A stretch of DNA of 64,000 nucleotides, taken from a phage. The notes under the pieces were generated by a model that worked only from the letters and a program-made list of their open reading frames with translations, was not told the DNA's origin and made no database searches. Below are positions 3,916-46,174 of the stretch, piece by piece; positions within the stretch are counted from its first letter, which is position 1, and every line of letters begins with the position of its first letter. The DNA lies in NCBI GenBank assembly GCA_025832235.1, contig GCA_025832235.1_3649.1, one strand, 5' to 3'. A program made the translations under genes and the position numbers.

Positions 3916-4233
3916 ATGCAAATTGAAATCACTGGCAACGTAGAAATCACTGAAGGTATGGTGTCTTTCATTTCCAACAAAATGTCTAAACTGGAGCGTT
4001 TGCACCCCTCTGCCAACTATGCACGTGTGAGTGTAAAAGTTGAAAATGATCACCAGGAAGTTATGGCGTTCATTTTTGACAATTCTGGAAAAGAAGTTAT
4101 TGCCAAGGCTAAAGGTAGTGATGCTTACGAGGCAACTGACCGTATGGTAGATGTTGCAGCACGTCAGCTGGCTAAATGCGGTGGAAAGAAAGGTAAGGGG
4201 AAAGGCAAAGTAAAGATTGACTTTGGAAAATGA
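3916..4233 (+). CDS. hpf: ribosome hibernation-promoting factor / YfiA (RaiA) family homolog
   Basis: 105 aa; MQIEITGNVEITEGM...KLERL...VSVKVE...AKGSDAYEATDRMVDVAARQLAK parallels E. coli HPF (MQLNITGNNVEITEAL...KLEQY...VLKVE...AEGQDMYAAIDGLIDKLARQL) recalled from memory; Lys/Gly-rich tail; own promoter and SD. Confidence 0.75.
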   Translation: MQIEITGNVEITEGMVSFISNKMSKLERLHPSANYARVSVKVENDHQEVMAFIFDNSGKEVIAKAKGSDAYEATDRMVDVAARQLAKCGGKKGKGKGKVKIDFGK

Positions 4234-8865: not shown

Positions 8866-9026
8866 TCTGGTGCACGATTGCATACCTTGGGTAGTTAATC
8901 TCATTACAGAGCGTTTAAGAGCTCCCTACAAACAACTCCATATTTCGAGCGTAGCGAGAACGCACGTCCGTTTTGACCCAAATCACCATACGCTCGGATT
9001 TTAACCAAACCCTCGCGGCGTTTCTG

Positions 9027-9055
9027 TTGACACATTACCGCTCTCGTGATAGTAT
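9027..9055 (+). promoter_or_regulatory. sigma70-like promoter (TTGACA-N17-TAGTAT)
   Basis: TTGACA 9027-9032, 17-nt spacer, TAGTAT 9050-9055, about 20 nt upstream of 9076 start. Confidence 0.5.
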
Positions 9056-9075
9056 CCACACATCGTTTGGAGAAT

Positions 9076-9177
9076 ATGGGATACACAATGAGAACATTGT
9101 CTGAAGTTTTAGTGGTGATCCTGATGATCATTACGTCCATAGCGGCTGTTGCCGGAATACTCACGGGTGGAACATGA
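9076..9177 (+). CDS. small hydrophobic peptide (33 aa)
   Basis: Hand-translated MGYTMRTLSEVLVVILMIITSIAAVAGILTGGT; SD GGAGA; ATGA overlap with next gene. Confidence 0.35.
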   Translation: MGYTMRTLSEVLVVILMIITSIAAVAGILTGGT

Positions 9178-9386
9178 TCAACACACATGCATCTGAAGAG
9201 ACATCCGAAGGAGTGACCATATGTCCCTTGGATGAGCCAGTTAAAGAGGAAAACTTCGATTCTGAAGATTCTCCATCTTCGCTCCAGGTAGATCCTGAGG
9301 CTGATGACTTGACGTGGGGAGACATCGTAGATATCTGGTTCTCTATTATGCCTGAGCACGAAGAGTTCAGAGGTGGTAGACTATGA
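9174..9386 (+). CDS. hypothetical acidic protein
   Basis: ORF track; coupled to upstream peptide; preferred over antisense ORFs 8904..9359 and 9161..9400. Confidence 0.45.
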   Translation: MINTHASEETSEGVTICPLDEPVKEENFDSEDSPSSLQVDPEADDLTWGDIVDIWFSIMPEHEEFRGGRL

Positions 9387-9507
9387 AGCACCGAGCCCAC
9401 ACAGGTTCCTCATGCTAAAGCATGGCCTGAAGAGGCAAACGTGCATAATTCCTGTGCATCGGAGCGTATAAAACCCTGTTCACACTCTCATTTCCAGAGG
9501 AGATTTC

Positions 9508-9723
9508 ATGAAGATAGAAATATTTGGTGGAGCTGACAACACTCGTGGCCTGATTTACCTTGAATTCGATGAATCATACCTGCCAGAGGTGTTAAATATA
9601 GACTCTGTTGCTGAGGCTTTGGGAGTAAACCCTAAAGAACTCCACTCTTGTGCTGAGATCGATGGTTGGGAAGAGACCATGAACATTGATTTCAGTGAAG
9701 TAGAGGATGAACCGCTGGACTGA
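9508..9723 (+). CDS. hypothetical acidic protein
   Basis: ORF track; SD GAGGAG upstream. Confidence 0.55.
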   Translation: MKIEIFGGADNTRGLIYLEFDESYLPEVLNIDSVAEALGVNPKELHSCAEIDGWEETMNIDFSEVEDEPLD

Positions 9724-11220
9724 CACACAATATTAGCTGCCCGGCTAAAGTGCTGGAAGCACCTATAACACATCTTTCAACTAAATTTCCTACCACCACA
9801 ATCACTTACCTCCCATACATGACTGTTTGCTTGTTTAGTGAGCAGTCATGCCTTGACATTCTTGCCTATCCTGATAAAATTAAGTTCTTCTCTTTTCTTT
9901 TACCGAGTAATTCGGGTTTTCTGTTCTCTTCGGTTTGAAGGGGTATGGAGATACACCTGAGTGAACAGGGTGAACAACCGAACCATTGGCTATGGCATTA
10001 GCATGGCGAAGCGGACGGGTGACGAAAGAGGGGCCGGAGGACACCAGTCACTGCCATATGATATATGGGTGATAACCTGAAGAGTCTGAATAAGTGTTTA
10101 AGTACCAGTCAGAGGAAAAGGTGAATGGTAGCCGAAGGGGGAGGGGGGTTTCTTGTATCTTTAATTTGTATATTATGTATACACTTGTAAACCAATTTCA
10201 TCTGAATCTGTTTACCACACAAAGTGGATAGAGACAAATATTACCTATTAAACTTGAATTATTTATAGAAAATACCACAACACCACTTAAGTCTTTGATT
10301 TTACACACAAATCTTACAGATATTCAACCTCCATATTTAACATACCTGTAACATATTCCATACTCTACCTGTCTGATCAATCTACCCAACCACATCCTTC
10401 ATATTTTCCCTGTCTGTACCACCCCTGCCCCGCCGGGAGTCCCGTCATATCTGGCTTTCCAGCAAATATCACACCCACAAATATCATTGCCTGAAGAGGG
10501 TTTCATCCCATAATACATGCCTTACCTGAAGAGCGCTTCATACACCACGTAAATTTTTTAATTGACCTGCAATTTTCCCGTCATGACCCCCTGCCCCGCC
10601 GGAGAGGTTGGCTTTTCCCACACAGACCTGAAGAGTCAGCCAGAAATATCTGAACAGGCCCAATTCTACCACGATTTTGACCTGACCTACAGGAGTGCTG
10701 CCAGGCGGACGAAATGGGAATACTTCTCATTCTTATAACAATTCTCAAATATCAAGGCAGTGAGGCAAATTAATAGGCTAGGCCGTTCACACAGTGGCAC
10801 AACATTTGCAATCTATTTTGTGTGGGGGAATGAGAATACATATCATTGTGAGAACCATTATCATTACGGGCAATTTAACATAATACCCATTATGCGCACC
10901 ACTGGCGATACATACAGGGATTGATAACATGAGTTACTGTTTACGCATATAACAATTATATTTATTACTATTTGTGTGGGATATAGTTAGCAGCCGATAG
11001 ATTAGATATTGACCTGCGGACTTCTGACCGTCTAGACGTCTAAACGCCCACACAGCAAGGGTTATACATACATCGCTGAATGTAAACAGGGCCGCAAAAA
11101 TGCTACCATACCAGTTTGTAAATTTTCAATGCAGCACTTGACAAAGAGGAGAAAAACTTGTCTGACACCTTATACACTTTCGATACAATAACGACTGTTA
11201 TTATTTCATGTTTCACTGTT

Positions 11221-11295
11221 CACGTATAGATTGTTCCCGCATAGACTGTTTACGCCTGGATAGTTTACACCTTGACAGTTTACGCATAGATGATA
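11221..11295. repeat. five tandem 15-bp iteron-like repeats (consensus NNCGCATAGAcTGTT)
   Basis: cacgtatagattgtt / cccgcatagactgtt / tacgcctggatagtt / tacaccttgacagtt / tacgcatagatgata in perfect 15-bp register. Confidence 0.6.
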
Positions 11296-11297
11296 AG

Positions 11298-11544
11298 CCA
11301 TGCCATTCGTTTGCATGAAAACAATTAGCAAGTTAACAATTAACAAGTTAATAATATATGACATAATATAAAAGCAGGGCAACTATTATTAGATCTATAG
11401 TTGCCTTGCTTATTATGTCATGATTAACTGAATATAAGGCAACTATGATCTGATTAATAGATTGCAGACAAACTATCACGGGGGTGATGGTTACTGCTTT
11501 TATATTATGTCGCGACTCCGTCGCGCCATGCCATTCGTTTGCAT
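11298..11544. repeat. 19-bp direct repeat CCATGCCATTCGTTTGCAT (11298-11316 and 11526-11544) bracketing an 18-bp inverted repeat
   Basis: Exact direct repeat; inverted arms GACATAATATAAAAGCAG (11360-11377) and CTGCTTTTATATTATGTC (11494-11511); inner palindrome GGCAACTAT/ATAGTTGCC (11378-11405). Confidence 0.55.
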
Positions 11545-12170
11545 AGTTGCCTTATTGTTACAGGTAAAACAATTACATTGTTAACTATTTCTTATCTTTC
11601 TCTTAGTCATCTAATGATTCCAGTCAGTATAGTTATGTGCAGTAAACATTAGACGACTAAAGATTTCTCTGATTATAGTAACCTATCGTGACAATTTCGA
11701 ACTGTTTACGAAAAATGTTGACACCTGGGCAGGTTTATGTTATGCAGTTTGTACGAATAATTATTTTGTACAGGTATTGACTATTCCGTTATTCTGTGGT
11801 TGGAATAAATACTTTGCAGGCTATAGAATGGTGATCGTACGTGGATTCTGAGATCTGTCGGCTATAGTTACACCCGATTTTTCACGTAGGACACGCTTTT
11901 TGGTTTGTGTAAGTGTATGACTTATAAGGGTTTTTAATTGTTGACAGTATACTGAAGATGTGCATCAGGTTAAATTTTGTGCAATAGCTGCATTACGTGC
12001 AATTTTGGGAGAGAAAACGGGTAAAAATAGCACCGCTACCACACAATGAAAGGTTATGCAATAGCTATTTTACATGTATATTTGTACAGTGTGCGGGATT
12101 GATGGCTCGTCAATTATTCCACTTGTCAGGTAGGGCCGTTTATGGTAGGAAAAGAGCAAACAAAAAGAAA

Positions 12171-12185
12171 GGGGCCTAAGCCCCT
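12171..12185 (-). terminator. rho-independent terminator ending the leftward unit
   Basis: GGGGC-CTAA-GCCCC stem-loop; on the minus strand it is followed by a U-rich tract; just downstream of stop of 12199..12462. Confidence 0.55.
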
Positions 12186-12198
12186 TGATAATGTTGTA

Positions 12199-12462
12199 TT
12201 ATTTGTTGCTCATCCAGTTTTCCCAAGCTGCCTGATAATCTGCCTCACTGCGGCGGATCTCTTCTTGTTCTTCAAGCCGGATCTCTTCTTCCAGGTACCC
12301 AAGGATGTCGGATTTTTTGGTCTGGCGTAACATCCAATCATCTTTTTTACGAGTAAAGATCTTGTACGCTTTCTCGCAAACCTCTTTTTTACTACCTTTT
12401 TGTACTTCAAGAACTTTGTAGGCCATGTACTGAACTAGTTTGAGCTGATCAAGACGTTTCAT
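12199..12462 (-). CDS. hypothetical protein
   Basis: ORF track; SD AAGAGG before ATG. Confidence 0.55.
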   Translation of the reverse strand: MKRLDQLKLVQYMAYKVLEVQKGSKKEVCEKAYKIFTRKKDDWMLRQTKKSDILGYLEEEIRLEEQEEIRRSEADYQAAWENWMSNK

Positions 12463-18130: not shown

Positions 18131-18535
18131 GGCGTTTACTCCTTTCTCTCTTTGATGTGGTTAGTATAGCTAACCTGTTGACGATGTCAATGATATTTTT
18201 AACGCCATAAAACGGCCCTGGGCGATGTTTTCAGGTTAAAGGGGGCGATTGCATAGGTGGGGGCCTTTTTGGCACTTACAGGGCCAACCAGGGGCGCTAT
18301 TCGTAGGATAGAAATAAAAAGCCCCGCACAATGGCGGGGCGTTGGTTGTTATTTGTCTTTATGGCGGTACCGTTCCGCCTGTCGTTCACGTTCCAAAAGC
18401 AGGCCCGGCAGTTTACGATCATAATGATTCCGCCAGATCTTCCCAAATCTTTTTGGCTTATTCAGTTTATTGTTCCGCTGGCGGCGTTCCGGCAGCTCTT
18501 CGGAATCATGAGATCGCTTTAAAATCTTTTCAAAA

Positions 18536-18883
18536 TTAATCTTCATATATTCCCCCCTTGCTAACTTCAATATTGGCCTGAATAGCCCGGATACGGCGCT
18601 TTATAACTTCCTGATCTGTGTGATCGTATCCCCAAAAGTCTACAATTTTTGCGCCCCCAGCTTCCAGGCGGTACAGTGTTTCCTGCATTTTGTAAGCCGG
18701 GATCGGTCGCGGTGTTACTTGGTCACCTTCTTTATTTTTATACTTTATAATATAATCTTCATTATCGTTGAATGTCCAAAATGGATATTCTGCAAGGGCG
18801 GTACTTTCCTTTTTATCCTGGATCTTGTTTACAATTAAAGCCGTAGCAATAGCGCCAATAATAAAACTAGCCCCGCTGATCAT
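18536..18883 (-). CDS. hypothetical membrane-anchored protein
   Basis: ORF track 18536..18946; ATG 18883 follows GAAAGGAG; N-terminal TM-like ISGASFIIGAIATALIV. Confidence 0.55.
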   Translation of the reverse strand: MISGASFIIGAIATALIVNKIQDKKESTALAEYPFWTFNDNEDYIIKYKNKEGDQVTPRPIPAYKMQETLYRLEAGGAKIVDFWGYDHTDQEVIKRRIRAIQANIEVSKGGIYED

Positions 18884-23731: not shown

Positions 23732-23983
23732 TTACAGGTTACTCCAGTATACTCGGCATTTACATTTCGGGCAATGAGGCTCTTTTATGTAATAACCATC
23801 AGTCTTTGGAACACTTTTTGGTGCAGTTTTAAGATTGTACCGAGTAAAACACCGGAAGCAGGTTACCTCTCCAACCTGTTGATCGTTTATCCACTCGCCA
23901 GAGTAAAGCTCTCTCTTGTTTCTCATAATTCTCTCCCAAATCCTCTGCAATCTTATACCAAAATCTCCAGCCAGAAAGCACAC
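23732..23983 (-). CDS. hypothetical protein with Cys-rich zinc-ribbon-like motifs
   Basis: ORF track; CFRCFTRY ... CPKCKC. Confidence 0.5.
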   Translation of the reverse strand: MCFLAGDFGIRLQRIWERIMRNKRELYSGEWINDQQVGEVTCFRCFTRYNLKTAPKSVPKTDGYYIKEPHCPKCKCRVYWSNL

Positions 23984-24176
23984 GGGAACACTTTGATGAT
24001 TGAATCTTTACCTGGTTCAGCAGTTCTTTTTCCGTAGGGTAGGTAGAAATACCCTCCTGCAGATTCGAACACAGCCCCTTCGGTTGTATCTATCACAGCC
24101 AGAATTAAGATTTTAGTCTCCATAGTGCTCCCTCTCTCAATCGTTGTGGTGACTATACCATCTCAAAAACCCGCTG

Positions 24177-24635
24177 TCAACACTTTTTGTACTCCACCAC
24201 GATAATATTCATATCAAAAGTGGCAAGGTTAATAACGTCCTCTACGTGCTCCCACTTCAAACCGCCTATGCCGCACCCGATCTTAGGGATGTAGAATGGT
24301 AAAGTCGATCCACTGAATACCTCATTGACTAGCTCAAAGCCTTTCAGGATTGAGAAATATTCAGCATTAGGTCCTGGGTAGAACTGAGTATACAGATTGA
24401 TTCCGTAGACAATACCTCTCGGAGATAAGTGCTCCCATCGGGAGAACGCACCCAGTTTACTTAGGCAACCGTGTCTGGTCTCTTTGTCAGCTGCCAATGC
24501 TTGAGGGAACTCACGGGCAATCTGTTTTGCTATCCCCTTGCCCATTGTGTGGAAGCAGTTACAACCGTGGATCAGGTGACCAGCACCGCTCTTAAAAAGG
24601 GAGATTAAATCTCCCTCTACAGTATCAATAATCAC
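24177..24635 (-). CDS. macro-domain protein (ADP-ribose binding / ADP-ribosyl hydrolase family)
   Basis: HLIHGCNCFHTMGKGIAKQIA and IPKIGCGIGGL parallel the two glycine-rich ADP-ribose-binding motifs of macro domains such as E. coli YmdB; probable GTG start at 24635 (SD GAGGAG) rather than track start 24734. Confidence 0.65.
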   Translation of the reverse strand: MIIDTVEGDLISLFKSGAGHLIHGCNCFHTMGKGIAKQIAREFPQALAADKETRHGCLSKLGAFSRWEHLSPRGIVYGINLYTQFYPGPNAEYFSILKGFELVNEVFSGSTLPFYIPKIGCGIGGLKWEHVEDVINLATFDMNIIVVEYKKC

Positions 24636-25050
24636 GGTATGCCAGCTCCTCTTCCGCAATTTCAAAAAACTCAGTCCAGCACTGTGGCATATTGGAGTTA
24701 CCGAAGTGGCTTTCATAGTAAAGGTTCTCACCACTTGGAAGATAGAAATCTGTTACCTCATAGAATCCACAATCGTCGCACTCGCCTTCTTCAAACTTAG
24801 CCTCAACCTTAATACCGAGGAAGGTGAAAAGTTTATGGATATCTTCAGTTTCGAACTCCCAGTGAATGTTGTTTTCCGCATCGGTGTAGAACTGGATCAG
24901 CAGACCATTGTCCAGTTTACCAAAATACTCTGTGAAGTAACTTCCTTCCCAGAAATCTTTATGACAAATAATATCCATGCGTTTGCCCATAATAATGGTG
25001 TGAGCGTTTTGGGCATCGTCACGAATCAGTTTTGGCATTTCATAGATCAT
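24625..25050 (-). CDS. hypothetical protein
   Basis: ORF track; coupled to macro-domain gene. Confidence 0.5.
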   Translation of the reverse strand: MIYEMPKLIRDDAQNAHTIIMGKRMDIICHKDFWEGSYFTEYFGKLDNGLLIQFYTDAENNIHWEFETEDIHKLFTFLGIKVEAKFEEGECDDCGFYEVTDFYLPSGENLYYESHFGNSNMPQCWTEFFEIAEEELAYRDY

Positions 25051-25118: not shown

Positions 25119-25316
25119 TTACACAGGAATTGCTTCAAACAGGCCGTTATCTATACCATCCTTCAGATAAAGATTATACTCTATGTCGGTATCTGTATAA
25201 AGGGCAGCATCCAGCATTCTATCTGTGAGTCCATCCATTGGGTGGAGAAACCACCACCCACGCCAGTCAAAGTAACAACCTGGTGCATCTTCTCTTACAC
25301 GGATTCGATAAATCAT
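25119..25316 (-). CDS. hypothetical protein
   Basis: ORF track. Confidence 0.4.
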   Translation of the reverse strand: MIYRIRVREDAPGCYFDWRGWWFLHPMDGLTDRMLDAALYTDTDIEYNLYLKDGIDNGLFEAIPV

Positions 25317-25412
25317 GGGCAGTGGCCTCCTGTTAGTTATACATCCCAGTTTTCTTCGTTCATCACGTCCTCCCGTTTTATGAAGTTATAATTGCACACC
25401 TTTCAACCTGTG

Positions 25413-25829
25413 TCAACAGAAAACTTCAACAAATTCTTCCACAGTTTTAATGTCATGGGAAAAAGGTTTACGGCTATAACGGGCAATAGCACTATCAACC
25501 ACCGCCCGGTACTCCAAATCTTCAGAATATTTCATGAAGCATTGCAGCGTCTCTGGGCAGATAGCTAAATAGCTCCACCACCCCTCTTCAGATTGGTAGT
25601 CGAATCCCATACTCTCCAACCATGAAGCATACACACCTGCACCCTCAAGCCAGTGAGTATTTTCATCCAGAAACTTGTTAATAGACATGTGAGCTTCTAA
25701 GCATTTATCCAGCTCTTTTCCGTTAACCATCCACGCACTGACCGTGGCGCATCCAAGGTCTACAGATTGAGTTGACAGGTTGTATTGGTCATAGTTCTCA
25801 GGTTTAACAATGATATCTTCTAATGTCAT
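25413..25829 (-). CDS. hypothetical protein
   Basis: ORF track. Confidence 0.55.
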   Translation of the reverse strand: MTLEDIIVKPENYDQYNLSTQSVDLGCATVSAWMVNGKELDKCLEAHMSINKFLDENTHWLEGAGVYASWLESMGFDYQSEEGWWSYLAICPETLQCFMKYSEDLEYRAVVDSAIARYSRKPFSHDIKTVEEFVEVFC

Positions 25830-25891: not shown

Positions 25892-26470
25892 TTAAAAGTA
25901 TTCGTATAAGTATCCATCTGGAGCTGGAATTTTTTCATGAATGTAGTAACCAATATATATTCCGGTTTCTCTGCTACAAGAGTTGTGAGATACCCATTCT
26001 TCAAGAACGTTACCATTCATGTCCAACCTCCTTACATTTTTGCACCGTCTACCGCTGGTGCTTCTATGTAACAGAATATCCTCTGTCTGCTTGTCTTTAT
26101 TTTCTCCCCAAGTCGTTAAACGGATATTATCAAAAGAGTACCCTTTGAAATCATCTATCCTGTCACAAGAAGGCTTTTTCCTTTTGTCGTATCCGCTGGC
26201 TACCCACTGATCATACAACTCTTTGTAACCGTTAAGGTATAGCCACTCCTTAAACTCTTTTTTGGTGTAAGTCGGAGGAGGGTGACCTCTTTGCTTGCTG
26301 TTGCACTTTTGAGCCTTGTACAACACACGTATTACACCTTTTTCTGAAGAGTCTTTAGCAAATTGGTCAGCCTCCCTGCTGGCCTTCTTGCAACACTCTT
26401 TGCACGTTGATTTGTTACTGGTGTAGAAGTCGGAGGCCTCCTTGTCCTCTCCACAACGTTTGCATTTCAT
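25892..26470 (-). CDS. putative HNH-family (homing) endonuclease with N-terminal zinc ribbon
   Basis: CKRCG...CKECC zinc ribbon; SCDRIDDFKGYSFDNIRLTTWGENKDK resembles HNH-type motif; same motif in 48815..49795. Confidence 0.45.
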   Translation of the reverse strand: MKCKRCGEDKEASDFYTSNKSTCKECCKKASREADQFAKDSSEKGVIRVLYKAQKCNSKQRGHPPPTYTKKEFKEWLYLNGYKELYDQWVASGYDKRKKPSCDRIDDFKGYSFDNIRLTTWGENKDKQTEDILLHRSTSGRRCKNVRRLDMNGNVLEEWVSHNSCSRETGIYIGYYIHEKIPAPDGYLYEYF

Positions 26471-29101: not shown

Positions 29102-29430
29102 GCTTCCTCGTCGTCTAAGTAATCATCAAGAGAGGTGAAGATTTCACCGAAGTATTCTAAGATTTCTAGCTCACGTGTGGTGCAGCAAACATAATCTCCT
29201 TGGTCGTCCTTAATAGTGGCCTCTTTACCCAGAATATCTACTTCAAGTTCATCGTTCAACAGGACGGCCCCTGTGTAAACTTTGTCAGCTGTGCAGTCCC
29301 GAAAAGCAGAGTCCTTCTCCAGATAGTCTGGCTTAACCTTGGCTTTAATTCGTTGATATTGTTTGGTCATTGCTGTGGTCCCCTTTCGTTTTGATAGGGC
29401 CATTATAGTAGGCCCTATCACTGTTGTCAA
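29098..29430 (-). CDS. hypothetical protein, Cys-motif family (D-AF-DCT ... DDQGD-V-CT)
   Basis: ORF track; paralog of 29434..29688. Confidence 0.55.
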   Translation of the reverse strand: MTTVIGPTIMALSKRKGTTAMTKQYQRIKAKVKPDYLEKDSAFRDCTADKVYTGAVLLNDELEVDILGKEATIKDDQGDYVCCTTRELEILEYFGEIFTSLDDYLDDEEA

Positions 29431-29433
29431 GTA

Positions 29434-29688
29434 TTAATGTTCAGGTTTTACAAAAACTACTTCATTAACAGTGCACCAGACAGAGTCTCCTTCATCATCT
29501 TTAAAGGTAAGGCACTGTGCTGAGTTTTCCAGCTCATCGATCTCTTCTTGTGATAAAGGGGCCCCTTCTTCCAGGAGGGCTTTTACCAGAGGGTTCTCAC
29601 AAAACTCTGCTTCATAAATTGCACCGACTGTGCAATCTTTAAAAGCTCGGTCATTTGCAACGCATTCTGACTTCAAAGTAATTTTCAT
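29434..29688 (-). CDS. hypothetical protein, Cys-motif family paralog
   Basis: ORF track; DRAFKDCT ... DDEGDSVWCT. Confidence 0.55.
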   Translation of the reverse strand: MKITLKSECVANDRAFKDCTVGAIYEAEFCENPLVKALLEEGAPLSQEEIDELENSAQCLTFKDDEGDSVWCTVNEVVFVKPEH

Positions 29689-29764
29689 CTTAGCAGTCTC
29701 CTTAGTTATTTAAAAATCAACGCTCTGTTTGTGTAAAGCATCTTATATCTAATCTTACTTCTTG

Positions 29765-30136
29765 TCAATGACTATTTTCAATCAGCCACACAGGGTCGAG
29801 GTAAATTTGTTGGCGTGTTGCCCAATGACAAACTTCATTGTACATCTGAACCTCTTTGTCCGTCAGTTCACGAATAGGCTCATCTATACCCTCATTTTTG
29901 TGGTAATCCCAGTCGGCATCGATTTCCCACAGCCATGACTTGTTGTCACCACGCTTACGCACACAGAAGTCACCAGGACGGCCTGCCAGTGCATTTAAGA
30001 ACTCGTTCTCCGCTCGCTCCTGAAGAATACTAAGGAGCAAAACGTTGGAGCATGACCGTAAAATATGCTTCAGCTCACAATCATCAATCTCAACTTCAAT
30101 ACGTTGTTTGACTGTGTGGGTACCTTTTACTAACAT
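29765..30136 (-). CDS. hypothetical protein
   Basis: ORF track 29765..30163; ATG 30136 follows GAGGAGG. Confidence 0.55.
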   Translation of the reverse strand: MLVKGTHTVKQRIEVEIDDCELKHILRSCSNVLLLSILQERAENEFLNALAGRPGDFCVRKRGDNKSWLWEIDADWDYHKNEGIDEPIRELTDKEVQMYNEVCHWATRQQIYLDPVWLIENSH

Positions 30137-30146
30137 ACTACCTCCT

Positions 30147-30341
30147 CTAAACGAACTCTGCAAGAGTTGTGTTGTTCACTGCACCGCAGTAAATGGAGTA
30201 TCCCAGCCCATTAGAGTGCAGAAACCACGGCGTGCCGAAATTATCTTTCACGTAGACATCACCGTTGTTTGTAAAGGGCCAATATTCTTCCCCAAGGGTA
30301 AAATACCTATTCATACCTTCAGCAAGATACTTTACTTTCAT
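30147..30341 (-). CDS. hypothetical protein
   Basis: ORF track. Confidence 0.45.
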   Translation of the reverse strand: MKVKYLAEGMNRYFTLGEEYWPFTNNGDVYVKDNFGTPWFLHSNGLGYSIYCGAVNNTTLAEFV

Positions 30342-30565
30342 AGGTCCTCTTCAACAACTACAAACTTGGCAAGCAAAGTGGTTCCGTAGATATGATACTC
30401 ACCGTTTGCCAGGTGAGAGATATACCAGGCAACCCCTTCCTCGTCTTTAATCATTTTGTTTGCACGAGCTTTATCGTAATAAACCTCGTAGGTCTTTCCT
30501 TCTTTAAAGAATGACAGGTCTGTCATCTTTTCTTCTACAAAGGTAGCTTTAACCAAAGTCGTCAT
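30338..30565 (-). CDS. hypothetical protein
   Basis: ORF track. Confidence 0.5.
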   Translation of the reverse strand: MTTLVKATFVEEKMTDLSFFKEGKTYEVYYDKARANKMIKDEEGVAWYISHLANGEYHIYGTTLLAKFVVVEEDL

Positions 30566-30969
30566 TGATCAGTCTCCTTCTTGTTAAGTCTGAATACTGC
30601 AATAATAGCATTCCCAAGGTGCAGTGTCAAGTCATTTCCAAGATACCACAGCATTCCACGGTCATCTTTGATGAAAGGGTAGCAATTTGGTGCCTTCTCT
30701 TTAATGAAAGGGTGACAATCTGGTGCTTTCCAGACATTGTACACTTTCCCAACCTGAAAGAAATCAGGCCCTGTTGGGATTTTAGTGCCTGGCCACACTT
30801 GAGATACCTGAACACACTCCACCTGCATAATAACAGGGATAGTCATGGATGTAAATGTTTTTGTTGGTTCTACTACCATAAAAGTCTCCTCTTTGCTCAA
30901 CAACACTTCCATGTGTTGATAGTTTACATTAGTGACAATCACCCCAGTTACGACCACACAAGTATTCAC
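30562..30969 (-). CDS. hypothetical protein
   Basis: ORF track (GTG start overlapping end of polymerase exon 2); true start uncertain. Confidence 0.45.
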   Translation of the reverse strand: MNTCVVVTGVIVTNVNYQHMEVLLSKEETFMVVEPTKTFTSMTIPVIMQVECVQVSQVWPGTKIPTGPDFFQVGKVYNVWKAPDCHPFIKEKAPNCYPFIKDDRGMLWYLGNDLTLHLGNAIIAVFRLNKKETDQ

Positions 30970-31282
30970 CTGTGATCTGGAACGGGACTCCCATCATTTT
31001 AGAAGCTTGCCAGAAGCAATGCACCACCATTTCACCCACAGGGCTCCAGATAAGTTCAAGCTTTCCGTCATCGTTCAGGATAGGATCGTACACCGTGTTT
31101 CCGTCTCTGTCAACCACTTCGTTTCCGTTTTCATCCTTGCGTGCCTTTTTGTACTTATGACCGTCGAACACATGAAGTTTGGCTTCCTGCTCTGCCTTAA
31201 ATGCTTCCAGTTCTTCAATTGTGTCGAAGGTGTACACAGTCTTATACTTCGGTGTGTCAGGCACTTGAAGTTGGTACTCATC
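30929..31282 (-). CDS. DNA polymerase (family A, T7 gene 5-like), exon 2 (C-terminal, begins with the DE of motif C)
   Basis: Translation DEYQLQV...GEYLCGRNWGDCH; C-terminus parallels T7 DNA polymerase ...TEGKMGPNWAICH; no SD or start codon of its own. Confidence 0.7.
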   Translation of the reverse strand, partial: DEYQLQVPDTPKYKTVYTFDTIEELEAFKAEQEAKLHVFDGHKYKKARKDENGNEVVDRDGNTVYDPILNDDGKLELIWSPVGEMVVHCFWQASKMMGVPFQITGEYLCGRNWGDCH

Positions 31283-31558
31283 CAATAGTTCAGGTAGGTC
31301 GTTAAGCTACCCCGCACCATTACGTGCATAGCCATACGTTTTCACGTAGGATCGGACCATCTCATATTCCTATGATAAGCAACCACAGGAATCCTCCCAT
31401 TTCGACCGCACTTGCTGGTCTACTTCCTTTCGGAATGGCCTCTGAGCGTTCGCTCTTTTGAGCGCTTCGTTGCGGATTACCTTGCCATAAGGTTTAGGCT
31501 TCCCGCAGTTAAAGAGGTTATTCGACATAGATTACTCTATGAAGCCACAATGTTATTT
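31283..31558 (-). mobile_element. group I intron (276 nt, ORF-less) in the DNA polymerase gene
   Basis: Splits H|DE of motif C; 5' exon ends in U, intron ends in G; IGS GUGG pairs with exon CCAU; P-like AACUGCGGGAAG (31499-31510), Q-like AAUCCGCA (31471-31478), R-like GCUCAGAGGCCA (31436-31447), S-like GAGAUGGUCC in canonical order; stops in all frames. Confidence 0.7.
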
Positions 31559-34500
31559 ATGGTAATAAATAATACGACGAACACCTTCATCGTACCACCC
31601 ACGCTTCACCATCTGGCGGTGCATGAGTATTCCAACTAAGTCACACAGCGATGCACCACCATTTTGTTGGTATGCATTAAGTAAAGAGTGTTTAGATCTG
31701 GTCCAGATAGCATGACCATCAAAAGAGTAGATAAACTTCTTACCCGTTGCTTCCCAGAATTTCTCCAGATCTTCTTTACGCCCCTTAAGACCAGGGTTGG
31801 CATCCCAGAGTGCATCGATTACCCTTTGTCCCAACTCTGGAGAGATGTCCAGCATATCTGCAACTTTATCTTTTTGTGCCCCATACATAACCCCATACGT
31901 GATAGGTTTACCGTCGTTACGGGAAATCTCCTTGCCTGCTACAGAAGAGTAAGCTTTGGCGTTATTACAGTTACCGCACACTGCCACTTTACCATTCCTT
32001 CTCACAATGATTGCTCCAGAAGGGACGGTAACGCAATAAACCAAAGAACCGCTCACCTCGACAGACTCTTTAGATAGTGTCAGCAACCCTGCTCTCTGTT
32101 TGCTACCAATTGTGATTCTGTGCTGCACGGCACGACCTTTTTTGTGAATCGCCACCGTATTATTCCGTAAACCACACTGAGTAGCCAGCGCAGACACCAC
32201 CTCTACAGATTTCTTCCTGCACTCGGCCTGGGAGTAGTAAGCAACCTTTCCACCTTCGGAAGATACCCACCCGTCCCAGTTAGATAAAGAAGCTATAAAC
32301 AGGTTTTTAGATTCTTTATCAAGGTTCATCAGGTTATAGGTGAAATCCTTATTGTTGTCCAAAAACTCAAATACCCAGGACGGAACGTGGAATTGGAACC
32401 TTCTCGCCAGTAAGCCTCCTTTTGTGGTTTTCCCGCTCTGCTCTACATAACTAAGGCTTAGAGCAGAAAAAGTATCTAAAAGCGTTGCAACTTTTCTTCC
32501 CTTTCCGACCTGAATCCTGCACACGATGCTGCCGTCCTTATTTGTATGCAAGTGCCCATCATCGTGAATAGCAATAAGCAAATTAACCTGGGCAGGAGAT
32601 AAGGTTGTATTCCCATAAAACTCTGCCGCATGGATAAACCTTCTTCCTGAATTAGACCCTTTACCTGCTTTCAGGTCTTTTGCCAAATCTTCAAACAATT
32701 TATTGCTTCTGTGATCCACAGTCAGCATCCTGTGTTGATCTGTAACCATAAAATCCACACTACTGTTGTGGAAATGATACATATCCCCACAATAACTACG
32801 CTTAACGTAATTTAATGGAGTAACAAGGTTCATTGACGAGGTGTTGTGATCGTACTGGAACACTTGTGTTCCCGGATCAAGATCTTCAAACCTCACCCAC
32901 CCTTTCTCCGTGAGAATTTGTGTATCTCCTGAATAACAGTGTGCATCGCCGTTACTTACAACATCGTAATACAGGCCGTTGTCGAACTCAAAGGCACCCC
33001 AAGCCCCGATAAGCTGCTCTAAGTTGGACCCGTCAATACCGATCTCAAAGTATCCTGGAGGAACACCCCACAGACTACGCATCTCTTTACCCATAACCAC
33101 TTTAGGAGATGGTTTAGGCATGTTTGCACAAATACTGTGTTTCTGTCGGGAAGTGTTTGTTAATCCAGAACTTTTAGCAGGAAGCTTATGGTCAATCTTC
33201 AAACGTGGGTGATTAAGAAGACCAGTATCAACCTTATCCTCCTTGATTGGATCAAGGACCGATCTGCGGTTTCGCAATGATAACCACAAGACGATATCTT
33301 TAGCCATCTCTCCGTTCAATTTTTCAAGATTCGGGCATAGGTGTCCAAACGTATCTTTCAGTTGCGGAGAAGTAATAAGTGCCCTAGCTTTTCTACGTAT
33401 TTTCCCGAATACTTCCTTTTTAATCCTTTCGGAGTTAGGAAAGCTTCTGAACTTGTGCACGGTTGTCTGGAACTTAGCATCAGTTTTGTTCCAGAAGTTG
33501 ATAATTAGGTCACAATACTCTGACTCTAAAAGCTCGTCCATATATGCATACACTCGTGCATCAACATCTGCATCAGGTAGAGCTTTCTTCTTGCTGTCTT
33601 TAGTTACATCCTTAGTTCTCCACATTGTCGGAAGCCAACCAGCACTGATCAGGTATCGCTTAATATCGTCCTGATTGCTGATTTTCATAGGTATCTTGCA
33701 GTCAGGCATTCGCTTCTGCTGTAGATCACTTATTGCCTGATCCATTAGCTCTTTAGGTAAAGGTTGTGGTGTGGAGGTGCCCTTGATATAGCCCCTCAAG
33801 AAATCCGCCATCTTATCAGGGTCTTTACAGCCCATCTCTTCACACCATTTTATCCCCATCTTACTGACATCTCCTGTGGAGGTAAATGCTCGCTTAGGAG
33901 GAGCTTTGAATTCTAAAGCACTCATGTCCACAGGGTAGCCAAGCTTGTCTTTTAACCATTTCCAACCATTATTGGAGATTGTCCCATCCTGGTTAAACGG
34001 CTTTTCAGGGAACTTAGGCCGCTGAGACATTGATAACTCTTTTAAAGGAAGTTGTGGTTCAACACGATCAGCGATCTCTTTCATCCACGCATCGCAGCGG
34101 TCACGTAAAGCAATAGCCCCATCTATGTCGAAATACACACCCTGTCGAGCCTGCAGCTCCATCAGGAAATGTTGCAGCATGCCTCGGCGTAATGCATTCT
34201 TCCAGGTAATCTTCTTGAATCCTTTAGGCTTCTCTTTGGCAGGGTCATACATAAAGTTCTGCATGTCAGATTTGCCGTAGAATACACCTTTTGATTCCGC
34301 TACCAACTCTTTCCAGAGCAACTCCTGGATGATAACGTCCTCGAACACACGATCCACATATTTCCACAGCGGAAGATCGCGCCAGTCATCAATTTGAACT
34401 TTCTGGTTACCAAGGGCGTAGCCCCATGCCATAAGGCCGTGAGGACCAACAGGTTGCATTTTCTTAGTAACCGGGTTGAATACAGCGTCCGGACAACCTT

Positions 34501-34951
34501 TTGGTAAAGGGCGATCAGGCCACAAGATTCGGCTCATAGCCAACGTATCAAACAGGTTAACCTGGTGGTCGTTGATAGTCCCCATGCATTTAGGATCACG
34601 GAACATATCAAAATGAATACCGGATAATCTTTCCATTAGCATAAAGTCATAACTGTAGCAGTTATGGCAGTTCAAAGCTGTTGGTGACCAGTCAGAATTG
34701 CCTGTAAGCCAACCTTCCAACTCCGAAAAATCTGCTATGCGAACTTCAAAATCTTTATAAAGAGTTTTCTTTGCCAGAATGAAGTTCTTAGCCTTTTCTA
34801 TATCCTCCTCGGAGTAGTGTGTGCGGTCATTTAGAGGAAGGAACAGCATAAAACGGTTCTTATTCAGCTCTTTAAACAGACCGCAGTGATAATAAAGATC
34901 TGGGTCTTCCAGCAAACCGGATGACTCAAAATCGAAAGACCACATACTCAT
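31559..34951 (-). CDS. DNA polymerase (family A, T7 gene 5-like), exon 1, containing an in-frame intein
   Basis: N-terminal 3'-5' exonuclease motifs (FDFESSG, CHNCYSYD, GPHGLMAWGYALG); motif A IDGSNLEQL; motif B KPITYGVMYGAQK; ends ...RRIIYYH where HDE is expected. Confidence 0.85.
31970..32938 (-). mobile_element. intein (323 aa) with LAGLIDADG-type homing endonuclease domain
   Basis: Block A CYSGDTQILTEKGW, block B LTVDHR, LAGLIDADG-like LLIAIHDDGH and FIASLSNWDGW, C-terminal VYCVTV...VAVCGN followed by +1 Cys; flanking exteins NGDAH|CNNAKAY restore a T7-like NGDIHTKNQIA segment. Confidence 0.75.
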
Positions 34952-44989: not shown

Positions 44990-46174
44990 TTAAGCTTTAG
45001 CTAAAATGGCGCTAAACTCTTCACCAAACTCTTTTACAATCTTCATCAGGTTTGGGTACGCTTTGATCAGTTGAGCAACGATCTTGTCACGCCCTTTACC
45101 GATAAGCAAGGCATTTCCTAAGGCGTTAGGTTTCATCATCGCCATAAAGACTGAGAATACAAAATCTCGGTTCTCGTCCTTGAAATTTTCCCAAAGGAAA
45201 TCGAGGAAGTTTGCCACACAGCTAACAAGATCTTCGTCAGAGATACTTGCATTTTCCATCATATTACGAATAGCGATACAACCTTCAGATCCAAGAATCC
45301 ACAAGATGTCTGGCTGCTTAGGCCCTACGTATTCTTTGCAACCCCCTGCCATAATCCGACCGATTTCCGGTAAATTGCGTTTCTTGGTGTGGTAGGTCCA
45401 GATCTCTACCGCTGCAGTGTGACCAATAGCACCTTGCAGAAGAACACGGGCCATAGCGTCAGAAATAATACCGCTGTCAAAATCGTGCAGGATATCAGAT
45501 GCAGCAACCCAAGATCGCGGTGTGGCAAAAGATGGGCAATTAATTTCAGCCATAGCCTCATAATTATCAATAGCTGATGGAACTCTTTTCAGATACCCAA
45601 TTACAGAGGAGTGAACCCCGTTGAGGAATGCGTAGTCCTCAATAAACACCTCTGCATTGCTTGTAACCTCTACAATGATAAAACGGTTAGCCAGAGGGGC
45701 TTCGAGCGCCGAAAGAACCGCACCATCTGTAGAACGGTTACCCGCAGCCACAAAAACAGAACCCTTAGGGAATGCATAGGTGCCGCACTTGTGGTCAAGC
45801 ATAATTTGCATTGCAACCTTTTGCAGGTAGTTATCTGCATGAGTGAGCTCATCCAGAAAGATAATTCCGCTCCAGTCAGGATCCGCAGGCCAAAATTCTG
45901 GAATTGCAAACACTGTACGTGTAGTTCCATCCGCTTCTACAGGGATAGGTAGCCCAGATAAGTCGGCAGGATCTTTATCTGACAGTCGCACGTCAACAAG
46001 GTTGTCATCTCGCTCACCGAACATATTATCAGCGATCTGCTTCATCACCTGGCTTTTACCCACACCCATTGGTCCCAAAATTAGGACAGATCGGCTATGA
46101 CGTTGGGCAAACTGAATAATAGCTGGCAACTCACGGACAGTGATTTGACCACTTTCGAATACGTTTCTTGACAT
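44990..46174 (-). CDS. AAA+ ATPase (MoxR/AAA_5-like)
   Basis: Walker A LILGPMGVGKSQ; Walker B IIFLDELTHA; 394 aa. Confidence 0.6.
   Translation of the reverse strand: MSRNVFESGQITVRELPAIIQFAQRHSRSVLILGPMGVGKSQVMKQIADNMFGERDDNLVDVRLSDKDPADLSGLPIPVEADGTTRTVFAIPEFWPADPDWSGIIFLDELTHADNYLQKVAMQIMLDHKCGTYAFPKGSVFVAAGNRSTDGAVLSALEAPLANRFIIVEVTSNAEVFIEDYAFLNGVHSSVIGYLKRVPSAIDNYEAMAEINCPSFATPRSWVAASDILHDFDSGIISDAMARVLLQGAIGHTAAVEIWTYHTKKRNLPEIGRIMAGGCKEYVGPKQPDILWILGSEGCIAIRNMMENASISDEDLVSCVANFLDFLWENFKDENRDFVFSVFMAMMKPNALGNALLIGKGRDKIVAQLIKAYPNLMKIVKEFGEEFSAILAKA

What the first reader, a model, noticed from the sequence alone, without database searches (positions are those of the whole stretch)
24177..24635. 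Macro-domain protein in the accessory array: candidate ADP-ribosylation countermeasure
HLIHGCNCFHTMGKGIAKQIA and IPKIGCGIGGL match the two glycine-rich ADP-ribose-contacting motifs of macro domains, in the right spacing for a ~150-aa single-domain protein. Phage macro domains are plausible erasers of host ADP-ribosylation-based defences or NAD-derived signalling. The gene sits among many small promoter-driven accessory genes.
Basis: partly seen in the sequence, partly recalled or inferred. Interest (0 to 1): 0.7.

Follow-up and report, generated by a model that had tools for sequence, protein, structure and literature searches.

The report
Phage macrodomain, probable anti-DarT2 eraser
This is a real, conserved 152-residue macrodomain gene of an rV5-like E. 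coli phage and the counterpart of phage T4's Tk.4/AdfM. It most likely strips ADP-ribose off phage DNA to defeat the bacterial DarTG2 defence, so it is one more member of a recently recognised kind, not a new system.

Summary

The window is a Vequintavirus (rV5-like E. coli phage). The protein is 39% identical over its full length to T4 Tk.4 and 69% identical to RB49 Tk.4. The family occurs in 2,723 of 50,697 phage records.

One detail seems not to have been discussed. The catalytic-lysine position of DarG, TARG1 and PhiKZ AdfM is an invariant glutamine (Q84) here, as in Streptomyces SCO6735. SCO6735 removes thymidine-linked ADP-ribose from DNA without a lysine.

Bacterial homologues are orphans in housekeeping contexts, and three of them sit next to a NADAR gene. 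No activity was tested here.

Verdict: a new member of a known kind, of modest interest.

The parts
24177..24635 (-). Macrodomain CDS: 152 aa, GTG start at 24635..24633, TGA stop at 24179..24177. Orthologue of T4 Tk.4/AdfM.
24646..24651 (-). Shine-Dalgarno-like GAGGAG, 10 nt upstream of the GTG start and inside the 3' end of the upstream gene.
   Evidence: Read directly from the sequence. Conserved in relatives L001 and L002.
24528..24569 (-). Loop-1 motif HGCNCFHTMGKGIA (residues 23-36). It includes the invariant N26, which is equivalent to TaqDarG N22 and SCO6735 N27, and the first glycine-rich ADP-ribose loop.
   Evidence: Family alignment: invariant G24, N26, M31, G34 and A36. Aligned to PDB macrodomains.
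24384..24398 (-). NLYTQ motif (residues 80-84). The invariant Q84 occupies the column of the catalytic Lys of DarG (K80), TARG1 (K84) and PhiKZ AdfM (K78), and of the essential Gln85 of SCO6735. The family-specific F-x-PGPN loop follows it.
   Evidence: The role of SCO6735 Q85 comes from PMC9411070.
24261..24287 (-). Loop-2 motif PKIGCGIGG (residues 117-125), the second glycine-rich (diphosphate-binding) loop. There is no Asp equivalent to TARG1 D125.
24625..25050 (-). Upstream 141-aa gene of unknown function (PHROG 8157). Its stop codon overlaps the macrodomain start by 11 nt, so the two are probably co-transcribed and translationally coupled.
   Evidence: No Pfam hit, and PHROG 8157 has no known function. 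Not homologous to the gene upstream of tk.4 in RB49.
25388..25416 (-). Sigma-70-like promoter (TTGACA-17-AATTAT with TG), the nearest good candidate for the transcript covering the 65-aa ORF, the 141-aa ORF and the macrodomain gene. A weaker site lies at 25201..25173.
   Evidence: Consensus scan only.
24152..24180 (-). Sigma-70-like promoter (TTGACA-17-TATAGT with TG, 11 of 12 matches) overlapping the macrodomain stop codon. It would drive the next small gene (24123..23953).
   Evidence: Consensus scan only.

Best explanation
The gene encodes a stand-alone macrodomain ADP-ribosyl hydrolase, the Vequintavirus orthologue of phage T4 Tk.4 (AdfM, 'anti-DarT factor macrodomain').

Proposed mechanism:
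1. The host DarTG2 toxin DarT2 uses NAD+ to attach ADP-ribose to thymidines in single-stranded phage DNA, which blocks replication.
2. The phage protein is made from the early/middle leftward gene array. It binds the ADP-ribose moiety in the macro cleft formed by loop 1 (HGCN...MGxGIA) and loop 2 (IGCGIGG).
3. It hydrolyses the ribose-thymine bond and restores unmodified DNA.

The residue at the catalytic-lysine position of DarG and TARG1 is an invariant glutamine (Q84). Chemistry is therefore more likely the lysine-independent, water-mediated type proposed for Streptomyces SCO6735 than the DarG/TARG1 type.

Shown here: gene reality, macro fold, structural class, orthology to Tk.4, and the identity of the active-site residues.
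Taken from the literature: T4 needs Tk.4 on DarTG2 hosts, and a Gln-type macrodomain can erase dT-ADP-ribose.
Inferred: that this protein does the same.
For: Fold and class:
- Pfam Macro is above threshold.
- The AF2 model has pLDDT 95.7 and pTM 0.90.
- NCBIfam and PADLOC each return DarG as the top or only significant model.

Orthology to Tk.4:
- 39% identity, E 4e-40, end to end. RB49 Tk.4 is 69% identical.
- The invariant motifs HGCNCFHTMG, NLYTQFxPGPN and P[KR]IGxGIG are shared.
- It matches the same PHROG whose T4 member is annotated 'phosphatase, A1pp motif'.

Function of the orthologue:
- tk.4 was the single significant hit in a T4 transposon screen on DarTG2 cells, and a clean knockout sensitised T4 (10.1101/2025.11.20.689424).

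A Gln-type enzyme can do the chemistry:
- SCO6735 has Gln85 in the same alignment column.
- It removes thymidine-linked ADP-ribose from DNA, loses activity as Q85A, and protects cells from DarT (PMC9411070).

Independent association:
- In three Ruegeria genomes the closest bacterial homologues sit directly after, and overlap, a NADAR gene. NADAR is the guanine-ADP-ribose DNA hydrolase family, so this parallels T4 carrying AdfN (NADAR) together with AdfM.

Selection pattern:
- Purifying selection (dN/dS 0.12) combined with scattered natural loss alleles fits a conditionally useful anti-defence gene.
Against: - Neither this protein nor T4 Tk.4 has been assayed for any activity.
- The T4 evidence is genetic and comes from one preprint.
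- Identity to T4 Tk.4 is only 39%, so specificity could have drifted.
- The protein fails the curated DarG model (47 bits against a cutoff of 250). It lacks DarG's DarT-binding C-terminal domain and its catalytic lysine.
- It is no closer to DarG than to TARG1, SCO6735 or Poa1p (56-66 bits each), so sequence alone does not fix the substrate.
- Bacterial homologues are not recurrently next to DarT.
- Nothing shows that Vequintaviruses meet DarTG2 in nature or that they resist it.
Confidence: 0.7

Rival explanations
1. It is a broad or different-target eraser. The macrodomain would reverse ADP-ribosylation of proteins or RNA made by other host toxins or defence ADP-ribosyltransferases, with DarT2-modified DNA being at most one substrate.
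For: - TARG1-class enzymes act on Glu/Asp-linked protein ADP-ribose.
- SCO6735 acts on both protein and DNA substrates (PMC9411070).
- The protein is roughly equidistant from DarG, TARG1, SCO6735 and Poa1p.
- The family is very widespread, at 2,723 phage records across many hosts. That may exceed what a single defence system would select for.
Against: - The only functional datum for the family is DarTG2-specific: tk.4 was the single hit.
- T-even phages carrying Tk.4 remain sensitive to the mRNA ADP-ribosyltransferase system CmdTAC (abstract of PMC11618068), so RNA-adenine ADP-ribose is apparently not reversed.
Confidence: 0.12
2. It partners the phage's own sirtuin. The macrodomain would hydrolyse O-acyl-ADP-ribose produced by the phage SIR2-family enzyme, or reverse ADP-ribosylation made by it, as in SirTM-macrodomain pairs.
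For: - A 98%-identical relative encodes a bona fide SIR2-family protein (PF02146, 94.6 bits) elsewhere in the genome.
- TARG1/OARD1-class macrodomains deacylate O-acyl-ADP-ribose (established knowledge).
Against: - The two genes are about 52 kb apart and in different gene arrays.
- In the sampled hit lists, the phage SIR2 records (1,006 in all) are dominated by 108-121-kb T5-like genomes. The macrodomain list is dominated by 160-175-kb T4-like genomes.
- No ADP-ribosyltransferase, SIR2 or NADAR domain is found among 73 ORFs of the window.
Confidence: 0.07
3. It is an ADP-ribose-1''-phosphate phosphatase, which is the legacy 'phosphatase / A1pp' annotation. It would clear a by-product of 2'-phosphotransferase-dependent RNA repair or splicing.
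For: - GenBank, PHROG and T4 annotations all say 'phosphatase'.
- The phage lineage has an RNA-repair-like module of Rnl1-type ligase, cREC, kinase and phosphoesterase.
Against: - The annotation derives from a domain name, not from an assay.
- No Tpt1/KptA 2'-phosphotransferase is annotated in the relative.
- T4-type Rnl1/Pnkp repair does not generate ADP-ribose-1''-phosphate (established knowledge).
- Poa1p has Ser, not Gln, at the equivalent position by my recollection of its sequence. This was not aligned here across that stretch.
Confidence: 0.05
4. It is a non-catalytic binder. It would act as a sponge for ADP-ribose-derived immune signals such as Thoeris gcADPR or His-ADPR, or as a stoichiometric inhibitor that binds DarT.
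For: - Macrodomains bind ADP-ribose derivatives.
- Catalytically dead SCO6735 Q85A still inhibits DarT in vitro.
- Loss of the catalytic lysine could be read as loss of catalysis.
Against: - N26 and Q84, the two positions needed for catalysis in SCO6735, are invariant in 56 of 56 family members and in T4 Tk.4.
- The nearest structural class consists of hydrolases.
- There is no evidence linking the family to Thoeris.
Confidence: 0.05

Closest known systems
Phage T4 Tk.4 = AdfM (bioRxiv 10.1101/2025.11.20.689424), with RB49 Tk.4
   Same: - Same family (PHROG 335), same length and same single-domain architecture.
- 39% identity to T4 and 69% to RB49, end to end.
- Identical invariant motifs, including N26 and Q84.
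- Also a small gene in an early accessory array that overlaps the preceding gene.
   Different: - A different phage family: Vequintavirinae rather than Straboviridae.
- The flanking genes are unrelated, so the gene moves as a single cassette.
- There is no functional test for the Vequintavirus copy.
- The much higher identity to RB49 than to T4 suggests horizontal exchange with Krischvirus-like phages.
Chimallivirus AdfM (PhiKZ gp104; Cell Rep 2026, PMC13309987)
   Same: A stand-alone phage macrodomain of the same structural class. It has been shown to remove DarT2-made ADP-ribose from DNA and to protect against DarTG2, which is probably the same job.
   Different: - Only 23% identical.
- PhiKZ gp104 is a close DarG relative (PADLOC DarG 132.9 bits against 49.4 here).
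- It keeps the catalytic Lys (FPTK) where this protein has Gln (LYTQ).
- It is imported into the phage nucleus.
- The two 'AdfM' lineages share a name but appear to be separately derived.
DarG2 antitoxin macrodomain (M. tuberculosis 5M3I, T. aquaticus 5M31/5M3E)
   Same: - The Asn of loop 1 is conserved.
- The presumed substrate, thymidine-linked ADP-ribose on ssDNA, is the same.
   Different: - No DarT-binding C-terminal domain and no adjacent darT.
- Gln replaces the catalytic Lys80.
- It is far below the NCBIfam DarG cutoff (47 against 250 bits).
Streptomyces coelicolor SCO6735 / Bacteroides BT1257 (5E3B, 2FG1/2AFC)
   Same: - An orphan, lysine-less TARG1-class macrodomain.
- Shared H-x-C-N, N-x-x-x-Q and P-[KR]-IGCG-x-x-GG motifs.
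- SCO6735 hydrolyses dT-ADP-ribose on DNA and needs Gln85.
   Different: - Sequence similarity is no higher than to DarG (43.5 against 47.8 bits pairwise).
- It lacks the longer Lys-rich mobile loop after the Gln. Here that loop is replaced by the family-specific F-x-PGPN.
- Phage-borne rather than chromosomal.
Human TARG1/OARD1 and yeast Poa1p
   Different: - TARG1 uses a Lys84/Asp125 dyad, and neither residue is present here.
- Poa1p is an ADP-ribose-1''-phosphate phosphatase.
- Both are eukaryotic housekeeping enzymes.

Membership tests
Macro domain superfamily (Pfam PF01661) | Match to the family HMM at or above the curated gathering score | tested here: met
   28.3 bits against a gathering score of 22, E 1.9e-6.
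Macro domain superfamily (Pfam PF01661) | Three-layer alpha/beta/alpha macro fold | tested here: met
   [not shown]
Macro domain superfamily (Pfam PF01661) | Binds ADP-ribose or a derivative | not testable with these tools
   Both glycine-rich loops are present and conserved, but binding needs an experiment.
TARG1/ALC1-like macrodomain class (TARG1, DarG, SCO6735, Poa1p) | Closer in structure and sequence to this class than to MacroD-type, PARG-type or viral macrodomains | tested here: met
   [not shown]
T4 Tk.4 / AdfM family (PHROG 335) | Full-length sequence homology to T4 Tk.4 | tested here: met
   BLASTP 39% identity over 153 aa, E 4e-40. PHROG 335 E 4.8e-59. The family profile scores T4 Tk.4 at 163.8 bits.
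T4 Tk.4 / AdfM family (PHROG 335) | Family-invariant residues: HGCN, NLYTQ-F-x-PGPN, IGxGIG | tested here: met
   G24, N26, M31, G34, A36, N80, Q84, P117 and G120 are invariant in 56 sequences. They are shared with T4 and RB49.
T4 Tk.4 / AdfM family (PHROG 335) | Required for phage growth on DarTG2-expressing hosts | not testable with these tools
   Shown only for T4, by genetics in a preprint. Bas54, a Vequintavirus studied in the same preprint, was not reported on DarTG2 hosts.
DarG2 antitoxin (NCBIfam NF048014; PADLOC DarG) | Score at or above the curated equivalog cutoff | tested here: not met
   47.4 bits against a cutoff of 250. Only model positions 3-139 of 338 are matched.
DarG2 antitoxin (NCBIfam NF048014; PADLOC DarG) | C-terminal DarT-binding domain and an adjacent darT toxin gene | tested here: not met
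   The protein is 152 aa, macrodomain only. The neighbours have no Pfam hits, and no ART domain is found among 73 window ORFs.
DarG2 antitoxin (NCBIfam NF048014; PADLOC DarG) | Catalytic lysine (TaqDarG K80) | tested here: not met
   Gln84 occupies that column in HMMER, hhalign and MAFFT alignments.
Chimallivirus AdfM (PhiKZ gp104 type) | Close DarG-like sequence with an N23/K78 active site | tested here: not met
   23% identity. PADLOC DarG 49.4 bits against 132.9 for gp104. K78 aligns with Q84.
SCO6735-type lysine-independent DNA/protein ADP-ribosyl hydrolases | Gln at the DarG-K80 / TARG1-K84 position, plus the loop-1 Asn | tested here: met
   Q84 and N26 align with SCO6735 Q85 and N27. Their functional importance comes from PMC9411070.
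SCO6735-type lysine-independent DNA/protein ADP-ribosyl hydrolases | Extended Lys-containing mobile loop after the Gln (K89, K94), and closest sequence kinship | tested here: not met
   The alignment shows that the 5-6-residue insertion of SCO6735/BT1257 is absent. Pairwise scores are no better than to DarG.
Poa1p-type ADP-ribose-1''-phosphate phosphatase (source of the 'phosphatase' label) | Phosphatase activity on ADP-ribose-1''-phosphate | not testable with these tools
   [not shown]

The most novel reading that the evidence does not exclude
The Tk.4-type phage macrodomains, including this one, may be a lineage separate from DarG and from the chimallivirus AdfM. On this reading they erase DNA ADP-ribosylation by a lysine-independent, Gln84-dependent mechanism of the SCO6735 type.

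The family is present in about 5% of sequenced phage genomes. It also occurs as an orphan 'genome-protector' gene in alphaproteobacteria, sometimes in an operon with a NADAR gene. It would then be the main way phages counter thymidine ADP-ribosylation, possibly with a wider substrate range (DNA plus protein) than DarG.
Probability: 0.4. Interest if true: 0.5.

Novelty: new member of a known kind. Interest (0 to 1): 0.3.

Why it matters
If the assignment is right, rV5-like phages should be intrinsically resistant to DarTG2. These phages are often considered for therapy because of their broad host range. The gene would then be a simple marker for predicting that resistance. The natural deletion and frameshift alleles would mark strains that have lost it.

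The invariant Gln at the catalytic-lysine position applies to T4 Tk.4 too. It gives a directly testable mechanistic prediction for a family found in thousands of phage genomes. It also separates two unrelated phage proteins that currently share the name AdfM.

For annotation, the widespread label 'phosphatase' and the truncated or extended CDS calls in several GenBank records should be corrected.

Tried and rejected
- Alternative starts. I rejected the 185-aa ORF from GTG 24734, the 165-aa CDS annotated in PQ014731, and the 122-aa CDS from Met31 annotated in OR062943. Homologues with ATG starts align exactly from the GTG at 24635, and the Met31 start would remove strands 1-2 and N26.
- A partner or toxin next door. 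None of ten neighbouring proteins has a Pfam hit, and nine match only PHROGs of unknown function; the tenth (25892..26470) matches endonuclease VII. The genes flanking tk.4 in RB49 are unrelated.
- A phage ADP-ribosyltransferase, NADAR or NAD-salvage gene in the window. None was found among 73 ORFs. A tblastn search with a Ruegeria NADAR found nothing in the window or in 133 kb of a relative. This is a weak test for such a divergent family.
- The phage SIR2 as a functional partner. Its distribution across phages does not track the macrodomain.
- Whether bacterial homologues sit next to DarT. The 31 loci are mostly housekeeping contexts: ileS-macro-lspA in 8 and rpoC-NADAR-macro in 3. No DarT appears among the 25 listed neighbour families. 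A single occurrence among the 41 unlisted families cannot be excluded.
- Finding the nearest subfamily. Scores against DarG, BT1257, SCO6735, TARG1 and Poa1p are nearly equal (56-66 bits), so no parent family can be named.
- The first genome scan with the 56-sequence alignment failed because it had no conserved stretch. It was repeated with six sequences, which biases the hits towards the two motifs used.
- Literature searches for a Vequintavirus macrodomain study or a Tk.4 biochemical study found none.

Full report
**What is there**

The window is an rV5-like phage, genus Vequintavirus. The 3.5 kb around the finding matches 120 phage records at 80-99% identity. Nearly all are Escherichia phages of about 136-140 kb.

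The finding's coordinates coincide exactly with a minus-strand ORF, 24177..24635. It translates to 152 residues and contains both quoted motifs.

The mechanical ORF list extends the frame to a GTG at 24734. The real start is almost certainly the GTG at 24635:
- GAGGAG lies 10 nt upstream.
- The start and its context are conserved in relatives down to 81% protein identity.
- The N-terminus MIIDTV aligns residue for residue with the ATG-initiated Tk.4 proteins of RB49 and T4.

GenBank records disagree on this CDS. OR062943 aa from Met31, and PQ014731 aa.

The gene is under purifying selection. dN/dS is 0.12 against both a 95%-identical and an 81%-identical relative.

**Is it a macrodomain?**

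Yes.
- Pfam Macro scores 28.3 bits against a gathering score of 22.
- A 56-sequence family profile hits PDB macrodomains at E 5e-17 to 5e-14.
- AlphaFold2 run with that alignment gives pLDDT 95.7 and pTM 0.90.

The protein therefore belongs to the TARG1/DarG (ALC1-like) class of ADP-ribosyl hydrolases. NCBIfam and PADLOC both return DarG as the top or only significant model. The score is far below the equivalog cutoff (47 against 250 bits) and covers only the macrodomain part of the model.

**What it is related to**

A tblastn search of 50,697 phage records finds homologues in 2,723 of them.
- They include T4 gene tk.4 (38.6% identity, E 3e-30) and RB49 tk.4 (68.9%).
- Others are T4-like, FelixO1-like, Pakpunavirus, Kuttervirus and jumbo phages.
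- BLASTP against T4 Tk.4 gives 39% identity over 153 residues, E 4e-40.
- The two proteins share every family-invariant position.

T4 Tk.4 has long been annotated 'phosphatase; contains A1pp phosphatase motif'. This is the origin of the 'phosphatase' label in PHROG 335 and in many records.

A 2025 preprint (HIDEN-SEQ, 10.1101/2025.11.20.689424) reports three things about tk.4:
- It was the single T4 gene depleted of transposon insertions on DarTG2-expressing cells.
- A clean knockout sensitised T4 to DarTG2.
- The authors named it AdfM.

The same preprint built a library for the Vequintavirus Bas54 but does not report a DarTG2 challenge for it. I found no paper on the Vequintavirus gene or on Tk.4 biochemistry.

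**Active site**

In 56 of 56 family members, and in T4 and RB49, the motif N-L-Y-T-Q is conserved, with N80 and Q84 invariant.

HMMER, hhalign and MAFFT all place Q84 in one column. That column holds the catalytic lysine of DarG (K80), TARG1 (K84) and PhiKZ gp104 (K78). It also holds Gln85 of S. coelicolor SCO6735 and the Gln of BT1257.

SCO6735 is known to do the following (PMC9411070):
- It hydrolyses thymidine-linked ADP-ribose on DNA.
- It protects cells against DarT.
- It is inactivated by Q85A.
- It is proposed to use an activated water rather than a lysine.

The phage protein also shares H-x-C-N and P-[KR]-IGCG-x-x-GG with SCO6735 and BT1257. It lacks their longer lysine-containing loop. 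In its place is a family-specific F-x-PGPN.

It has no equivalent of TARG1 Asp125. Overall similarity to DarG, BT1257, SCO6735, TARG1 and Poa1p is nearly equal (56-66 bits). The family is therefore its own branch of the class, and sequence alone cannot name its parent.

**Relation to the other 'AdfM'**

A 2026 Cell Reports paper (PMC13309987) gave the same name to the chimallivirus macrodomain PhiKZ gp104. That protein removes DarT2-made ADP-ribose from DNA in the phage nucleus.
- gp104 is only 23% identical to the window protein.
- It scores 132.9 bits on the PADLOC DarG model, against 49.4 for the window protein and 36 for T4 Tk.4.
- It keeps the lysine.

Two different macrodomain lineages therefore appear to have been recruited by phages for the same purpose.

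**Context**

The gene lies in a long leftward array of small genes of unknown function, downstream of rIIA/rIIB, helicase, primase-helicase and DNA polymerase.

It overlaps the stop of a 141-aa gene (PHROG 8157, unknown function) by 11 nt. The nearest upstream promoter-like sites are at 25416..25388 and 25201..25173. Another strong site overlaps its stop codon and would serve the next gene.

The flanking genes are unrelated to those flanking tk.4 in RB49, so the gene travels alone.

None of 73 window ORFs carries an ADP-ribosyltransferase, SIR2 or NADAR domain.

A 98%-identical relative encodes a genuine SIR2-family protein about 52 kb away, beside an RNA-repair-like module. Phage SIR2 genes are found mainly in T5-like genomes, whereas the macrodomain is found mainly in T4-like genomes. 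I therefore rate a SIR2 partnership as unlikely.

**Bacterial relatives**

A motif-seeded scan of 185,579 species genomes found 31 loci, mostly Rhodobacterales, Hyphomicrobiaceae and Nitrospirales.
- The contexts are housekeeping rather than defence islands.
- Eight loci have ileS-macro, and in three of them a recognisable lspA follows the macro gene.
- Three Ruegeria loci have rpoC-NADAR-macro, with the NADAR and macro genes overlapping.
- No DarT appears among the 25 neighbour families that were listed, out of 66 found.

NADAR enzymes remove guanine-linked ADP-ribose from DNA (PMC11825919). A NADAR-macro pair therefore mirrors T4's AdfN plus AdfM. This is independent, though thin, support for a role in DNA de-ADP-ribosylation.

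**Dispensability**

Several natural Vequintavirus contigs carry broken alleles.
- In one 135.5-kb contig, a 508-bp deletion between two 9-bp direct repeats fuses the upstream gene to the C-terminal half of the macrodomain. The repeat is CAGTTCTAC, at window 24886..24894 and 24378..24386.
- Other contigs show frameshifts or an in-frame internal deletion.

This fits a gene that is useful only on some hosts. These are automated assemblies, so the frameshifts in particular could be errors.

**Conclusion**

The most likely function is erasure of DarT2-type thymidine ADP-ribosylation from phage DNA (confidence about 0.7). This rests on orthology to T4 Tk.4 and on the SCO6735 precedent for the Gln-type active site. 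The chemistry, the substrate range and the phenotype in a Vequintavirus are all untested.

The finding is a new member of a known and very widespread family. Close relatives are already annotated as 'macro domain-containing protein'.

The point of some interest is the invariant Gln at the catalytic-lysine position. It distinguishes the Tk.4-type family from DarG and from the chimallivirus AdfM, and it predicts a different mechanism.

Noticed in passing
window 31333..31568 (-), next to the DNA polymerase ORF 31553..34951 (-) and the ORF 30562..30969 (-): Rfam finds a group I intron (RF00028, 64.7 bits against a gathering score of 50) exactly at the 3' end of the 1132-aa DNA polymerase ORF. Relatives annotate an HNH endonuclease just downstream. 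The polymerase gene is probably split by a self-splicing intron carrying a homing endonuclease. The ORF 30562..30969 had no Pfam hit.
   Followed up: partly
window 24378..24386 and 24886..24894; locus L008 2501..2866: A 9-bp direct repeat (CAGTTCTAC on the coding strand) lies in both the macrodomain gene and the upstream 141-aa gene. One natural 135.5-kb Vequintavirus contig has the 508 bp between the repeats deleted. This gives a 121-aa fusion that lacks the macrodomain N-terminal half. Other contigs carry frameshifted or internally deleted alleles (P0020, P0036, P0054).
   Followed up: yes
loci L019, L027, L028 (Ruegeria); L011, L012, L016, L018, L020, L029, L034, L038 (Hyphomicrobiaceae, Rhizobiales, an unclassified alphaproteobacterium and Jannaschia): Bacterial homologues of the phage macrodomain are chromosomal orphans. 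In Ruegeria they form an overlapping gene pair with a NADAR-domain gene directly after rpoC. In eight other genomes the gene follows ileS; a recognisable lspA follows it in three of them (L011, L012, L018).
   Followed up: partly
relative PQ014731.1 113338..116463 (locus L004 about 29300..33200), outside the window: The phage lineage encodes a SIR2-family protein (PF02146, 94.6 bits). It is adjacent to an Rnl1-type RNA ligase, a cREC 'cyclic-phosphate processing receiver' domain protein, a P-loop kinase and a calcineurin-like phosphoesterase. Together these look like an RNA-repair module plus an NAD-consuming enzyme. Homologues of the SIR2 protein occur in 1,006 phage records, mostly T5-like.
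   Followed up: partly
GenBank records MG065662, MG065672, MG065674, MG065677, MG065655 and others: Sixteen records named 'Campylobacter phage' (host given as C. jejuni, about 140 kb, unannotated) match this E. coli Vequintavirus window, up to 98% identical over the 3.5-kb query. One is classified as Vequintavirus FFH2 and flagged UNVERIFIED. The host label is probably wrong.
   Followed up: no
window about 8900..12200: An ORF-poor stretch of about 3 kb separates the rightward (+) and leftward (-) arrays of small genes. It has the lowest GC of the profiled region (0.37-0.39 around 11-12 kb) and no tRNA or Rfam hit. The HIDEN-SEQ preprint reports that the equivalent ~2-kb intergenic region of Bas54 tolerates no transposon insertions.
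   Followed up: no
window 3916..4233 (+): A 105-aa phage gene matches the ribosome hibernation / RaiA-HPF family (Ribosomal_S30AE, 48.9 bits against a cutoff of 23.7). The relative annotates it as a ribosome-associated translation inhibitor.
   Followed up: no
window 44990..46174 (-) and 49805..51286 (+): These encode a protein that relatives annotate as a MoxR-like ATPase (only a sub-threshold AAA_14 match here) and a DUF2201 metallopeptidase/VWA-like protein (annotation). The HIDEN-SEQ preprint reports that the Bas54 MoxR ATPase gene is needed to overcome a predicted defence system, DS-28.
   Followed up: no
window 18349..18570 (-): A small ORF matches the phage T7 gp1.1 family (Phage_1_1, 44.4 bits), which has no known function.
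   Followed up: no
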